This document shows positions 42,001-45,000 of a stretch of 57,186 nucleotides of DNA, one piece after another (positions within the stretch are counted from its first letter, which is position 1; every line of letters begins with the position of its first letter). The stretch lies in contig JBEQAY010000003.1 in the NCBI GenBank assembly GCA_041640075.1, positions 1-57,186 of the forward strand. The letters run 5' to 3'. The position numbers were made by a program. Origin of the DNA: Candidatus Nanohaloarchaea archaeon. Its GTDB lineage: Archaea; Nanohalarchaeota; Nanosalinia; Nanosalinales; Nanosalinaceae.

Positions 42001-45000
42001 GAAGGAGAAGAATAGGAATTCAGTCCAGTAGATTTCCTAATTCTTTATTCACTTCTGCAAAGTTTTTACCGCTGTACCTGGTCTTGGGCCAGAGATCAAA
42101 TCCGTCATCTTCCTCTCTAAGAACCACGTGAGTGTGGAAATGCTGGATTGACTGCTGTGCCGGCTTACCGTTCGCACTAAGGATGTTAACACCTGTGTAG
42201 CGGGATTCCTCTTTCAACCGGTCGACAAGGCTCTTGACTTCGGAGAAAAAGTTTTCCACCTCTTCCTGATTCATCTCGAAAATATCTTTAGCGTGTTTCT
42301 TCGGTACGACCAGGAGATGCGCCTCTTTCAAGGCACCTGATTTCAGTGGAGGGAAAACTGCTATATGCTCATTCTGGAATATTATTTTCTCGTGATCTTC
42401 CTCGATTAATCTACAGAAAACGCATTCTCCTTTTACTTTTTCTAGGTAAGCAGTCTTCAGTTTTTCCTTCAAATCCTCCAGCATAATTTTTCTAGACCCT
42501 TGAAAGGATTTATCAGTTTCGATAGTTCAGAGGAAAACAGGAATTAGAGAGGATTCTAGTCTATTTTCTCTTTCTCTGTGTCCCATTCAGGCCCTATCTC
42601 CGACAGATTCTTTGAGACGTGTTGAATAATCTTCTCAAGTTTCTTTTCCTTCTCCATAGTGCTTGAAGACAGGAGGAAGTCCTGCGAAAGTTTGTACATG
42701 TATCCATCAAACTCCTGAAGTTTCTCCAGCCTGTAATTTTTCTTTACAGGTACTCTCCCTTTCAAGATGTACTGTTTCTGTAAGAGATATTGGAATAGCT
42801 GGTTCATCATGAATCTTTTCTGTGATACGTCCTTGGAAGGTACGTCCTGTTTCATATCCCAGATACTGTAGCTTATCTCCTGTAACTCCTTTTCAGAGAG
42901 ATCCAGTTTTTCTTTCCTGGTTTTTTGAGCTTCCTTTTCCAGTTCGTTGAAGAAGTTATCTTCGTCGTACCTAATGTCCGCGGTGGTGAACCAGCGGTAG
43001 TTCCGCCACCAGTCATCGTTTTCCAGGTATTTTTCAGACCAATCCCTCGAGTTGAAGAATTTTTCAACCACCACGCCGTCAACTTCTTCCGTCACTCTTT
43101 TCCGCCAGTTGCCCTCCACAACTGCATAGAGATCCAGGTCGTTATGTTCCCCCTCCGGGTTTCTGGCATAACTACCTACTGCAGCCACTGCTTTGACGTC
43201 TTCTCTCTGCTTGAGTTCCTCGACCTGTCTCTCCACAAATTCTTCCTAAATATGTGTCATTTTGCTTCGGAGATCGCTTCCTCAAGTTCATCCGGTTTCT
43301 GAGATCCTATCACAATTTCCGTGTCGTCTTCCATGGTCAGGCGGACACATTCCTCCCCTTCCACGCTGTAAGCCATCTTATATCTGAAAGGGAGCCATCT
43401 CCAGCCCCAGCCACCGAACTCCTTCAAAGGGGAGTACTCTTCAGCCGCAAAACTTTTCACCTCATCCAGGAAAATTTTCCTGGGCCTGAAGAAGTGGAAA
43501 GGGAAGAATCGGACGGAGATATAGTCTTCTTCAACATTTACCTCCAGTCTGGCAAAGTAGAGAAGTGCTATAGCTATCAGGATAGCTGCTACAGCAGATA
43601 AACTTATCAAAAGTTTTGAGGAGACTGCAAGAGTTGAAAGAATAGGTACAAGTGCGATTACAAGTAGTACCCATAGTTTTGAATGCCTGAAGTCCTGCTC
43701 TTCCTCGAATATCATTATATCTCCTGCATCAGGATTTTTCTTGCCTTTTCAGCGTCAGCCTTTCCGTTTGTCTCCTTCATTATCTGGCCGATGAAAAAGT
43801 TGACTGCTGAGTCCCTGCCATCCTGGAAGTCTTCGACGGCACCAGGATTTTCCTCTATCACATCAGCAACTTTCTCTTCCAGGTTAAAACTTTCTTCCTC
43901 CGGCAACTCACCTTTTCCGGAGAACGACTCAACTAGTCTCTGCATATGTGTCTGGTCGTCAGCCCTGGAGAGAATCTTCTCACCGACATCTTCCTCGAAA
44001 TCTATACCTTCCCTGTTGAACGCTTTCAGGAGATTCAGGATATCCTCTGCCTCGAAATCTTCCGCCAGATCAAGGAAAACTTTCCTGTACCCTTTATTTA
44101 CCACAAAGATGGCAGATTCCTCCTCAAGACCTTTATCGCAGATTTCATGTATATCCTCATCTGTGGAGACAGCTATGTCCCTTTTCTCAACTTCAAAATC
44201 TGATTTAACCAGTGCCTCACTGAAATCTCTGGTATCAATGATAACACCACGAGTCTTCTCACCTACAGTGTGAGAGACTCTCTCGTTCTCAAATATCCTT
44301 TCGTCTGCTATGTGCTTCAAGTCTGTAGAGAACGGATGTACAGTACCTGATTCAAATCCTGTGATTTTTTCGGATTCCTCTGGCGGCACCATCCTATATT
44401 CCGTGCCAAATTTCCGTTCCGAGAGTGTTCTGTCGCCAGGAAGCAGTACATGGAATTTTTCACCCTCTGATTCGATTATCAGGCTTTTGACGATCTGCCG
44501 GGTTTTCACTCCACGCTCCTTTGCAGCATCGTCACAGCTTTTCGTTGGATTCTCCTGCACAACTTCTTCGTAAGGGATTTCAAGTTCATTCAGTTTTCTG
44601 TCAGCTTTCATCCTGTTGCACCTGTTCTAGAGCTGTCTCAAATTTTTCCATGTACTCCTCAAAAGTACCTTTGAAACCGGTGTGAAGAGGTTCTGGAAAG
44701 TTCCCTGGTTTTGCCCATTTCAGGTCGTCGATCTTCTCGGGTTCATTGATCTCTACCTCTTTAGAATCAACTTTAGCGAAGAAAGGTATTGCCAGCCAGT
44801 GAGTGCTCTCTCCTTCGTGCTCACGGAAAACTCCATGAGCAGGAAGCCTGTCAAATATTTCGCATCCAGCCCCGAGCTCCTCCTTGATTTCTTTCCGTAC
44901 ATTTTCCTCAAGCTCAAGTCCTTTCTCCAGCTTTCCGCTTCCTGGATCCCAGCGACCGGATTCGTCACGTGTTTTACTGCTTCTTAACTGGAAAAGTATT

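What a model noticed while it worked through the whole genome (the two positions that open the first line are those of the whole stretch)
43715..44611. YbaK-type tRNA deacylase fused to a GatB-like YqeY tail inside the gatCAB cluster
g00190 (C3:43715-44611, - strand, 298 aa) joins an N-terminal YbaK/ProX-type aminoacyl-tRNA deacylase domain (res 21-130) through a ~110-residue linker region to a C-terminal YqeY domain (res 241-298), the tRNA-binding tail otherwise found at the end of GatB. It lies in the gatB (g00192) - gatA (g00194) - gatC (g00199) neighbourhood, 0 nt from g00189 and overlapping the Nudix gene g00191. The fusion is a fixed trait of Nanohaloarchaeota. It looks like a free-standing editing enzyme that has borrowed GatB's tRNA-docking tail, i.e. 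a trans-editing factor aimed at the tRNAs handled by the transamidation route or at tRNA-Pro (the archaeal-type ProRS g00131 has no editing insertion).
Evidence so far: Pfam: tRNA_edit E 8e-17 (res 21-130) and GatB_Yqey E 6e-17 (model 91-148 of 148, res 241-298); Swiss-Prot hits only to the C-terminal 55-110 residues of GatB, 35-49%. 185 homologues at E<=1e-10; all 120 listed carry both Pfam domains, 117 of them 295-308 aa, three shorter (226-259), 49-100% identical; every organism name given is a nanohaloarchaeon; sources call them only 'YbaK/EbsC family protein'. neighbours.tsv: tRNA_edit within two genes of GatB_N in 27 of 69 order genomes but only 249 of 100,434 genomes that have both families.
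(Added by a program. Inside this text positions count along the whole contig: contig position 1 is position 1 of the stretch shown here. "Call 12" and the like, gene names such as g00115 and contig names such as C1 are that model's own, and its searches are not shown. The text may have been shortened before it was handed on; [...] marks where a part breaks off. The agent that wrote the report below was given it as the finding of a first reader that could run no searches.)

Follow-up and report, generated by a model that had tools for sequence, protein, structure and literature searches.

The report
tRNA deacylase wearing GatB's tRNA-docking body
A small archaeal protein joins a proofreading (tRNA-deacylating) domain to the whole tRNA-recognition half of the amidotransferase subunit GatB, which suggests an unrecognised quality-control step in the indirect route that makes asparaginyl-tRNA.

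Summary
The ORF (43715-44611, minus strand, 298 aa) and both Pfam domains are real.

- There is no ~110-residue linker. A confident model (pLDDT 93) shows a YbaK/ProX-fold domain (1-149) joined directly to a helical module (148-298). That module superposes on GatB from the cradle/helical boundary to the C-terminus. The protein is in effect a GatB whose catalytic cradle is replaced by a deacylase.
- The fusion is not fixed in the phylum. It is in 34 of 70 species genomes and absent from three single-contig genomes that are 95-99% complete.

Where present, the gene follows gatB on the same strand within 480 nt in 31 of 34 genomes.

New here: other YbaK-type domains are fused to the N-terminus of whole GatB (Woese-/Iainarchaeota) and to the C-terminus of AspRS (DPANN archaea and CPR bacteria), inside aspS-gatC-gatA-gatB clusters.

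Best reading (0.55): a trans-editing deacylase steered by the GatB tail to tRNA-Asn, acting on the transamidation route. The amino acid it removes is unknown; escaped Asp-tRNA-Asn is my leading guess. No activity can be read from sequence.

It is a new variant of a known kind and of real interest to the tRNA-fidelity field.

The parts
44165..44611 (-). Residues 1-149: YbaK/ProX-fold aminoacyl-tRNA editing domain (INS superfamily). It carries the family's lysine (K42 in IVKSL) and a G89-T-V-H-P93-F loop.
   Evidence: Pfam tRNA_edit E 9.4e-16. VIA-align: 2cx5_A Z 20.0, rmsd 1.9, 144 aligned; 1wdv_A Z 19.3; 1dbx_A Z 19.0. K42, G89, V91, H92, P93 and F94 are invariant in 24 family members.
43895..44170 (-). 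It is the counterpart of GatB's helical domain (S. aureus GatB 295-407).
   Evidence: Model 148-242 aligns with 3h0l_B 297-411 (Z 5.0, 95 aligned), and the whole of 146-298 aligns with 3ip4_B 292-472 (Z 10.2, 153 aligned). The half folded alone gives 3kfu_I as the top hit of 48,161 chains, Z 8.5, 144 of 149 aligned. NCBIfam GatB models align from res 185. Pfam GatB_Yqey covers model 2-148 in the deep-branching member P0128. Not detected by hhalign.
43718..43894 (-). Residues ~241-298: YqeY-type tail domain of GatB with the conserved N271..G275..M278..G283-K-A285 pocket motif.
   Evidence: Pfam GatB_Yqey E 1.3e-15. 45% identity to the neighbouring GatB at 414-468. hhalign against a GatB alignment gives 99.5% over res 228-298. 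The corresponding pocket (V449, M452, G457, A459, P461) is described in passages of PMC2811023.
45071..46486 (-). gatB (471 aa), upstream in the same string of overlapping genes.
   Evidence: GatB_N E 1.5e-94 and GatB_Yqey E 3e-37. NCBIfam GatB equivalog 551.9 bits, over its cut-off.
44601..45074 (-). Nudix hydrolase gene inserted between gatB and the fusion. Among the related loci examined it is private to this genome.
   Evidence: Pfam NUDIX E 1.1e-11. tblastn found it in none of the 11 other nanohaloarchaeal loci.
43257..43715 (-). 152-aa hydrophobic protein of no family. Its ATG overlaps the fusion's stop codon.
   Evidence: No Pfam or NCBIfam hit. TAATG junction. Not found in the 11 related loci.
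42556..43236 (-). 226-aa nucleotidyltransferase-fold protein, syntenic downstream of the fusion in related genomes.
   Evidence: Pfam NTP_transf_2 E 5e-05. tblastn gives 54-68% identity over the full length directly after the fusion gene in 7 of 11 related loci, and weaker partial matches in 4.
48028..49395 (-). gatA (amidase subunit).
   Evidence: Pfam Amidase E 1.9e-116.
51779..51991 (-). gatC.
   Evidence: PF02686 at 67.1 bits, over its cut-off.

Best explanation
The protein is a two-module trans-editing factor.

Module 1 (res 1-149) is an INS-superfamily (YbaK/ProX-fold) aminoacyl-tRNA deacylase with its catalytic-type lysine and GXXXP loop intact.

Module 2 (res 148-298) is the complete tRNA-recognition body of GatB, meaning the helical domain plus the YqeY tail. 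It is joined at the point where GatB's catalytic cradle would end. The protein therefore has the layout of GatB, with a hydrolytic site in place of the kinase/transamidase site.

[quoted passage not shown] That recognition is attributed to this body. I therefore infer that module 2 docks the protein on tRNA-Asn and presents the aminoacylated CCA end to module 1, which hydrolyses it.

My leading guess for the substrate is Asp-tRNA-Asn that has escaped amidation. A near-cognate or non-protein amino acid on tRNA-Asn is the alternative.

What is shown: the architecture, the conservation of the motifs, the coupling to gatB, and the fusions of other YbaK-type domains to GatB and AspRS. What is inferred: deacylase activity and docking on tRNA-Asn. 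What is speculative: the identity of the amino acid removed.
For: Architecture:
- AF2 model with pLDDT 93.3, pTM 0.82 and no disordered segment.
- Res 1-149 match ProX/YbaK structures at Z 18-20.
- Res 146-298 align with S. aureus GatB 292-472 (Z 10.2) and 9a6e_A 295-473 (Z 11.6). The cradle/helical boundary of that GatB is 294/295 (passages of PMC2811023).
- Folded alone, the C-half has GatB of the Thermus transamidosome as the only hit with Z>=8 among 48,161 chains. The only other full-length matches are the GatB-tail-like tRNA-binding domains of human and yeast GlnRS.

Conservation:
- K42, G89, V91, H92, P93, F94, N271, G275, M278 and G283 are invariant and A285 is at least 90% conserved in 24 members that are 49-77% identical to the window protein.
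- The tail is GatB-like rather than GatE-like: 55.4 against 19.1 bits.

Context:
- The genes gatB, Nudix, fusion and the next ORF overlap stop-to-start.
- In 21 of 34 fusion-bearing genomes the gatB match ends no more than 61 nt upstream on the same strand. In 10 more the gap is 337-478 nt.

Pathway:
- No AsnRS or GlnRS scores over its cut-off in this 89%-complete genome.
- GatE is present. GatDE is Gln-specific and archaeal GatCAB prefers Asp-tRNA-Asn (passages of PMC2811023).

Fusions elsewhere:
- An editing domain sits on the N-terminus of whole GatB in L021, L022, P0137, P0140 and P0269. L021 and L022 lie in aspS-gatC-gatA-gatB operons.
- An editing domain sits on the C-terminus of AspRS in L037, L049 and L082. 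That family has 122 hits, and all 120 listed carry both families. Some sources name members aspartate--tRNA(Asn) ligase or nondiscriminating AspRS. They have the same cluster layout.
- These are three separate, well-supported editing-domain clades (100/98, 100/98, 98/94).

Other points:
- A free-standing paralog of another clade is available for other editing.
- Precedent for hydrolytic clearance of an escaped intermediate: H. pylori GluRS2 deacylates free Glu-tRNA-Gln (abstract and passages of PMC3241645).
- tRNA-Asn and tRNA-Asp of this genome differ in D-loop size in ARAGORN's drawings.
Against: - No activity, substrate or tRNA partner can be read from sequence.
- A deacylase for Asp-tRNA-Asn would compete with GatCAB for its obligatory substrate and could create a futile cycle.
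- The gene is dispensable. It is absent from 36 of 70 species genomes and from 11 of 28 genomes at least 90% complete, including close relatives in the same genus. Most of those also lack AsnRS.
- The three fused editing-domain clades are different subfamilies, so they need not share a substrate.
- The sister relationship between the tail-fusion clade and the GatB-N-fused clade (SH-aLRT 94 in the quick tree) is unresolved in the careful tree.
- The homology of res 150-227 to GatB's helical domain rests on fold and HMM envelopes. hhalign aligned only 228-298, and Z values of 8.5-11.6 for helical modules are not decisive on their own (notes).
- Gene neighbourhood within one phylum may be inherited rather than selected.
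- The best structural match of module 1 (2cx5) represents ProXp-x, a broad Abu-tRNA deacylase (passages of PMC11295145).
Confidence: 0.55

Rival explanations
1. It is a general or tRNA-Pro-directed trans-editing factor (ProXp-x/ProXp-ala-like, clearing Ala-, Cys-, Abu-, Ser- or Thr-tRNAs). The GatB tail serves only as an unspecific affinity enhancer for the tRNA elbow. The position next to gatB is a historical accident of how the tail was acquired.
For: - The closest solved structures are ProX/ProXp-x and YbaK (2cx5_A Z 20.0, 1wdv_A 19.3, 1dbx_A 19.0).
- ProRS of this genome is the archaeal type without an editing insertion.
- YqeY acts as a cis affinity enhancer in Deinococcus GlnRS (abstract of PMC1865053).
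- A plant ProXp-ala gained a helical C-terminal domain that improves tRNA binding (abstract of PMC9425024).
- Dispensability is typical of accessory editing factors (my knowledge).
Against: - A separate free-standing ProX-type paralog exists in this genome. Homologues of it are found in phylum genomes both with and without the fusion.
- The tail retains GatB's conserved pocket motif.
- gatB adjacency holds in 31 of 34 genomes, and other YbaK-type domains are fused to GatB and AspRS but, in these searches, not to ProRS-pathway proteins.
- NCBIfam YbaK_EbsC scores 38.5 bits against a cut-off of 153.
Confidence: 0.25
2. It is a non-hydrolytic GatB mimic: a chaperone or regulator that binds (Asp-)tRNA-Asn through the tail and holds the aminoacyl end in the YbaK pocket. 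It would protect the intermediate or hand it to GatCAB, or sequester tRNA-Asn when amide donor is short.
For: - It has the GatB body without the GatA/GatC-binding cradle.
- GatCAB itself protects aminoacyl ester bonds (Table 2 of PMC3241645, as quoted in the passages).
- This role would avoid the futile-cycle problem.
Against: - The invariant lysine and GXXXP loop of catalytically active relatives are kept across the family.
- The one tail-less homolog with Lys->Arg, in G006, sits on a long branch that looks like decay.
- No member of the INS superfamily is described as non-catalytic in the review passages I read.
Confidence: 0.1
3. It targets tRNA-Gln (Glu-tRNA-Gln) rather than tRNA-Asn.
For: - Bacterial GatB tails read tRNA-Gln (passages of PMC2811023).
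- GlnRS is absent here.
- The second family, with possible organellar transit peptides, would meet GatCAB working on tRNA-Gln (my knowledge).
Against: - This genome has GatE.
- Archaeal GatCAB strongly prefers Asp-tRNA-Asn (passages of PMC2811023).
- The tail is GatB-like, not GatE-like.
Confidence: 0.07

Closest known systems
[quoted passage not shown]
   Same: Same fold (Z 18-20). Same conserved lysine and GXXXP-type loop. A Pfam tRNA_edit member.
   Different: [quoted passage not shown] This protein has a 150-residue tRNA-recognition body. It scores far below the YbaK equivalog cut-off. It forms its own clade (100/98) with a clade-specific His in the GxVHPF loop.
GatB subunit of GatCAB (helical + YqeY tail domains)
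   Same: Res 146-298 superpose on GatB 292-472. The conserved tail pocket motif is kept. 45% identity to the neighbouring GatB over the last 55 residues.
   Different: It lacks the cradle domain (no GatB_N match). It therefore lacks the kinase/transamidase site and, from my knowledge of GatCAB structures, the contacts with GatA and GatC. The tails form their own long-branched group outside the nanohaloarchaeal GatB-tail clade, so they are not recent copies of it.
Deinococcus radiodurans GlnRS-YqeY chimera, and the GatB-tail-like N-domain of eukaryotic GlnRS
   Same: A GatB/YqeY module is appended in cis to an enzyme acting on an amide-amino-acid tRNA, and it raises tRNA affinity (abstract of PMC1865053). 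Full-length structural matches to 4ye6 and 3tl4.
   Different: The partner there is a synthetase. Here it is a deacylase.
Plant ProXp-ala with its C-terminal helical domain
   Same: A trans-editing enzyme of the same superfamily gained a helical C-terminal domain that improves tRNA binding (abstract of PMC9425024).
   Different: That paper's abstract calls the plant domain's origin unknown and reports that it mediates dimerisation. Here the added part is recognisably GatB's tRNA body.
H. pylori GluRS2 'resampling' of free Glu-tRNA-Gln
   Same: Hydrolytic removal of a transamidation intermediate that escaped the transamidosome (abstract and passages of PMC3241645). This is the function I propose.
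   Different: There it is a side activity of the synthetase itself, not of a dedicated editing protein. It concerns tRNA-Gln in a bacterium.

Membership tests
INS superfamily / Pfam tRNA_edit (PF04073) | Match to the family model over its gathering score | tested here: met
   58.5 bits against a cut-off of 25.5, res 21-130.
INS superfamily / Pfam tRNA_edit (PF04073) | YbaK/ProX alpha-beta fold | tested here: met
   2cx5_A Z 20.0 (144 aligned, rmsd 1.9), 1wdv_A Z 19.3, 1dbx_A Z 19.0.
INS superfamily / Pfam tRNA_edit (PF04073) | Conserved active-site lysine and GXXXP loop. The motif names are recalled. The positions were identified by alignment to APE2540 and across clades. | tested here: met
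   K42, G89 and P93 are invariant in 24 members. The lysine column is shared with the GatB-fused, AspRS-fused and free forms.
INS superfamily / Pfam tRNA_edit (PF04073) | Aminoacyl-tRNA deacylase activity | not testable with these tools
   Needs a biochemical assay.
YbaK proper (Cys-tRNA(Pro) deacylase, TIGR00011) | Score over the equivalog cut-off | tested here: not met
   38.5 bits against a cut-off of 153.25.
GatB (TIGR00133 / NF004012) | Cradle (GatB_N) catalytic domain | tested here: not met
   No GatB_N match. GatB equivalog models score 52-55 bits against cut-offs of 315-338 and align only res 185-298.
GatB (TIGR00133 / NF004012) | YqeY-type tail domain (PF02637 C-terminal part) | tested here: met
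   57.9 bits against a cut-off of 27. hhalign 99.5% over 228-298.
GatB (TIGR00133 / NF004012) | Helical domain between cradle and tail | tested here: inconclusive
   The fold aligns. NCBIfam envelopes start at res 185. hmmsearch envelopes of several GatBs start at profile positions 138-165. hhalign did not align res 150-227.
Free-standing YqeY proteins | A ~148-aa single-domain protein matching the whole of PF02637 | tested here: not met
   Only model positions 91-148 match by Pfam, and the protein carries an editing domain. 1ng6 and 8xjg align only with res 241-298.

The most novel reading that the evidence does not exclude
The indirect (transamidation) route to Asn-tRNA-Asn has a dedicated hydrolytic proofreading step that has gone unnoticed. 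YbaK-type domains would have been recruited at least three times, onto AspRS, onto whole GatB and onto a cradle-less GatB body, to destroy Asp-tRNA-Asn (or another wrong species on tRNA-Asn) that escapes amidation. In that case the nanohaloarchaeal protein is the free-standing form, a GatB-shaped Asp-tRNA-Asn deacylase that uses GatB's own discriminator to spare Asp-tRNA-Asp.
Probability: 0.3. Interest if true: 0.85.

Novelty: new variant of a known kind. Interest (0 to 1): 0.72.

Why it matters
How cells that make Asn-tRNA and Gln-tRNA indirectly keep the deliberately mischarged intermediates out of the ribosome is an old question.

A dedicated editing protein built from GatB's own tRNA discriminator would be a fourth safeguard. 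The parallel fusions of editing domains to AspRS and to GatB give three natural constructs in which to test it.

It would also be the first INS-superfamily trans-editing factor with a borrowed, specific tRNA-recognition body. That is a ready-made example of how tRNA specificity can be grafted onto a promiscuous deacylase.

Tried and rejected
- **Recent copy of the neighbouring gatB tail: rejected.** The fusion tails form their own long-branched group outside the nanohaloarchaeal GatB-tail clade (SH-aLRT 99). The origin of the tail is unresolved (GatE was meant as outgroup but did not enter the tree).
- **Duplicate of the genome's free-standing paralog: rejected.** They sit in different, well-supported clades.
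- **Sequence proof for the helical part: failed.** hhalign of the family against a 12-sequence GatB alignment aligned only res 228-298.
- **Expression: no answer.** No RNA holder was listed for window 43257-46486, so no reads were laid.
- **Organism of the second YbaK+YqeY family and of the whole-GatB fusions.** Cluster look-up gave no names except Guillardia theta for P0142. The atlas only pointed back to the nanohaloarchaeal family at score 0.89, a lead only. The homologue search with P0141 gave 9 unnamed proteins.
- **AsnRS against the fusion.** AsnRS is over its cut-off in 5 of 70 genomes and none of the 5 has the fusion. However, 31 of the 65 genomes without AsnRS also lack it, and kinship is not controlled, so this is not usable as a test.
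- **Prior description in print.** Six full-text searches gave nothing on these architectures: YqeY+YbaK; YbaK+GatB; aspartyl-tRNA synthetase+YbaK+fused; transamidosome/trans-editing/Asp-tRNA; Nanohaloarchaeota/aminoacyl-tRNA/GatB; trans-editing/INS superfamily/ProXp. I judged this from titles, abstract starts and the passages I read. Subscription journals and supplements were not searched.
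Full report
**1. The observation**

The ORF is there as described: 43715..44611 on the minus strand, ATG start, 298 aa. 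Pfam finds tRNA_edit at res 21-130 (E 9.4e-16) and GatB_Yqey at res 241-298, model positions 91-148 of 148 (E 1.3e-15).

It belongs to a string of minus-strand genes whose stops and starts overlap:
- gatB (45071-46486) and a Nudix gene (44601-45074) overlap by ATGA.
- The Nudix gene and the fusion overlap by 11 nt.
- The fusion and a 152-aa hydrophobic ORF (43257-43715) overlap by TAATG.

gatA (48028-49395) and gatC (51779-51991) lie further upstream on the same strand. A polyprenyl synthetase and other genes lie in between.

There are 187 hits, and all 120 listed carry both Pfam families. Of these, 117 are 295-308 aa and three are shorter. They are 49-100% identical, and every organism name given is nanohaloarchaeal.

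**2. There is no linker**

An AlphaFold2 model built on 24 family members is confident throughout: mean pLDDT 93.3, pTM 0.82, no segment under 50.

Residues 1-149 have the YbaK/ProX fold:

| Structure | Z | Note |
|---|---|---|
| 2cx5_A | 20.0 | rmsd 1.9, 144 aligned |
| 1wdv_A | 19.3 | |
| 1dbx_A | 19.0 | |

Residues 146/148-298 are all helical and align as one piece with GatB:

| Structure | GatB residues | Z | Aligned |
|---|---|---|---|
| 3ip4_B | 292-472 | 10.2 | 153 |
| 9a6e_A | 295-473 | 11.6 | 151 |
| 3kfu_F | | 8.1 | |

S. aureus GatB is described as cradle 1-294, helical domain 295-407 and tail 412-475 (passages of PMC2811023). The junction in the window protein therefore falls at the cradle/helical boundary.

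To avoid leaning on Foldseek's ranking, I folded res 150-298 alone (pLDDT 88.2) and aligned it to 48,161 PDB representatives. The only hit with Z>=8 is GatB of the Thermus transamidosome (3kfu_I, Z 8.5, 144 of 149 aligned). The only other matches that span the whole module are the tRNA-binding N-domains of human and yeast GlnRS (4ye6_A Z 7.6; 3tl4_X Z 7.2). The remaining hits cover about 55-residue sub-bundles or the YqeY end only.

Sequence support for the middle part is partial:
- NCBIfam GatB models align res 185-298 to model positions 370-478.
- Several GatBs aligned to the family profile from positions 138-165 onward.
- Pfam GatB_Yqey covers model positions 2-148 in the deep-branching member P0128.
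- hhalign against a 12-sequence GatB alignment aligned only res 228-298, at 99.5%.

I therefore take the YqeY end as proven GatB-type. The helical part is well supported by fold and by position, but not by profile-profile comparison.

**3. Conservation**

These residues are invariant in 24 members that are 49-77% identical to the window protein:
- the lysine of the IVKSL motif (K42);
- G89, V91, H92, P93 and F94 of the loop G-T-V-H-P-F;
- in the tail, N271, G275, M278 and G283.

A285 is at least 90% conserved. The tail residues correspond to the conserved pocket described for the GatB tail (V449, M452, G457, A459, P461). Deleting the GatB C-terminus abolishes tRNA binding (passages of PMC2811023).

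The histidine in the GxVHPF loop is peculiar to this clade. The GatB-fused, AspRS-fused and free forms have Pro or Ser there.

**4. Distribution**

In 70 species genomes of the phylum, the family profile finds a full-length match in 32 and a half-length match in 2. Of the two, G042 is cut by a contig end and G025 holds the N-half only.

Among the 28 genomes that are at least 90% complete, 17 have it and 11 do not. Those without it include the single-contig genomes G032, G047 and G065, whose congeners G033, G050 and G067 have it.

The fusion is therefore an accessory gene that is often lost (or gained). It is not a fixed trait.

**5. Coupling to gatB**

From the coordinates, for the 34 genomes that carry the fusion:

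| Position of the end of the gatB match | Genomes |
|---|---|
| No more than 61 nt upstream, same strand (often 3-6 nt) | 21 |
| 337-478 nt upstream (room for one small gene, as here) | 10 |
| On another contig (G005) | 1 |
| Cannot be judged (G060, G042) | 2 |

Twelve weak matches of that call were not listed.

The Nudix gene and the 152-aa ORF of this window were not found in 11 related loci. A 226-aa nucleotidyltransferase-fold gene (42556-43236) follows the fusion in 7 of the 11 at 54-68% identity.

**6. The pathway in this genome**

The genome (980 kb, 89% complete) has these features:
- No AsnRS or GlnRS scores over the family cut-offs.
- It has GatCAB, and a GatE with the typical insertion.
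- Its ProRS is the archaeal type without an editing insertion.
- It has a second, free-standing tRNA_edit protein of 170 aa on contig C32.

GatDE is Gln-specific. [quoted passage not shown] The module that the window protein retains is thus the part credited with that discrimination in archaea.

ARAGORN draws tRNA-Asn with a smaller D-loop than tRNA-Asp in this genome. The tRNA-Asp drawing looks imperfect, so I give this little weight.

**7. Relatives outside the phylum**

A profile search of 1.84 billion representatives without length limits, followed by Pfam, showed several forms.

(a) Proteins of 626-638 aa in which an editing domain precedes a complete GatB: P0137, P0140, P0269 and the fragment P0152 (for P0269's length and naming). 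Two of the 80 DPANN gatB loci fetched from species genomes carry this form: L021 (Woesearchaeota) and L022 (Iainarchaeum). Both lie in aspS-gatC-gatA-[edit-gatB] operons.

(b) A second family (P0298, P0141, P0299) with the same editing + helical + YqeY layout. Some members have Arg/Ala-rich N-terminal extensions. It clusters with a Guillardia theta protein. Its organisms are unknown.

(c) By chance, five of the 80 loci hold, 3.6-5 kb upstream of gatB, an AspRS with a C-terminal tRNA_edit domain. Three were checked by Pfam (L037, L049, L082). L035 and L061 were seen by HMM only. This is a large family of 122 hits, and all 120 listed carry PF04073 and the class II Asp/Asn/Lys core. They come from Woesearchaeota/Nanoarchaeota and from CPR bacteria (Roizmanbacteria, WS6). 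Some sources name them aspartate--tRNA(Asn) ligase or nondiscriminating AspRS. L037 shows the layout aspS-edit ... gatC - cyclophilin - gatA - gatB. L082 is the same, except that no gatC was recognised.

**8. Phylogeny**

A careful tree of 105 editing domains (ultrafast bootstrap/SH-aLRT; three rows under 110 aa were dropped, and near-duplicates and some free paralogs were thinned) gives three separate supported clades:
- the tail-fusion clade, which includes the second family and the tail-less G006 homolog (100/98);
- the GatB-N-fused clade (100/98);
- a clade holding all 16 AspRS-fused domains with nine free ~155-200-aa proteins interspersed (98/94).

The genome's free paralog lies elsewhere (96/90).

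The quick tree had put the first two clades as sisters (SH-aLRT 94). The careful tree leaves the backbone unresolved, so I do not claim that relationship.

The tail tree is poorly resolved. It shows the fusion tails outside the nanohaloarchaeal GatB-tail clade. The tails are therefore old paralogs and not recent copies.

**9. Interpretation**

The protein has GatB's layout with a hydrolytic pocket where the cradle would be.

YbaK-type domains have been attached to three different members of the Asn-transamidation machinery.

This makes tRNA-Asn of the indirect route the most likely target (0.55). A general or tRNA-Pro editing role with an unspecific tail is less likely (0.25).

The amino acid removed is open. 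Clearing Asp-tRNA-Asn that has escaped amidation is attractive:
- Such leakage causes mistranslation (passage of PMC3367201).
- H. pylori GluRS2 hydrolyses free Glu-tRNA-Gln (PMC3241645).

It would, however, compete with GatCAB. The gene's dispensability also shows that the function is not essential.

**10. Novelty**

The 2024 review of editing factors lists eight trans-editing families of this superfamily. It states that, apart from the ProRS INS domain, members are single-domain proteins without dedicated RNA-binding domains. The fused forms it shows are the plant ProXp-ala with its C-terminal domain and the ProXp-ala-ProRS fusion (passages of PMC11295145).

My six full-text searches found no description of a YbaK-GatB-tail, YbaK-GatB or AspRS-YbaK architecture. 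I saw listings and selected passages only, and subscription journals are not covered.

I rate it a new variant of a known kind, with a wider implication if the three fusions share a function.

Noticed in passing
L037:16-1914, L082:2-2353, L049:2-1468 (also L035, L061): Bacterial-type AspRS (OB fold, class II core, GAD) with a C-terminal YbaK-type editing domain, lying in an aspS...gatC-gatA-gatB cluster. The family has 122 hits in Woesearchaeota/Nanoarchaeota and in CPR bacteria (Roizmanbacteria, WS6). Some sources name members nondiscriminating AspRS. I found no description in six literature searches.
   Followed up: partly
L021:5034-6890, L022:4682-6526; P0137, P0140, P0269: An editing domain is fused to the N-terminus of a complete GatB (614-638 aa). 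In L021 and L022 the gene lies in operons aspS - gatC - gatA - [edit-gatB]. In 3 of the 5 proteins examined (L021, L022, P0137) the editing domain runs almost directly into the GatB start motif.
   Followed up: partly
P0298, P0141, P0299, P0143, P0300, P0301 (metagenomic); P0142 (Guillardia theta): A second family has the same editing + helical + YqeY layout. P0141, P0300 and P0301 have Arg/Ala-rich N-terminal extensions that look like transit peptides, and the family clusters with a cryptophyte protein. It may be an algal organellar counterpart. Its organisms are not identified.
   Followed up: partly
window 42556-43236 (-): A 226-aa nucleotidyltransferase-fold protein (NTP_transf_2, E 5e-05) follows the fusion gene in 7 of 11 related loci at 54-68% identity. 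Its function and any link to tRNA are unknown.
   Followed up: no
L101 (G006:C29), identical to P0147: A tail-less member of the fusion clade, on a long branch, has Arg in place of the conserved lysine. It occurs in a genome that has an AsnRS and no GatB-tail match, and it looks like decay after the switch to the direct route.
   Followed up: partly
window 44601-45074 (-) and 43257-43715 (-): The Nudix gene between gatB and the fusion, and the 152-aa hydrophobic ORF after it, were not found in the 11 related loci. Other genomes with a 337-478-nt gap at this position appear to hold a different small gene.
   Followed up: partly
window 46549-47991 (-): A 480-aa polyprenyl synthetase with a long acidic N-terminal extension sits between gatA and gatB and breaks up the gatCAB cluster.
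   Followed up: no
L117 (G028), L120 (G043): In two genomes the free-standing ProX-type paralogs lie at the end of open frames of 315 and 342 aa. The first ~175-200 residues have no Pfam match, so these may be N-terminal extensions or merely upstream open frame.
   Followed up: no
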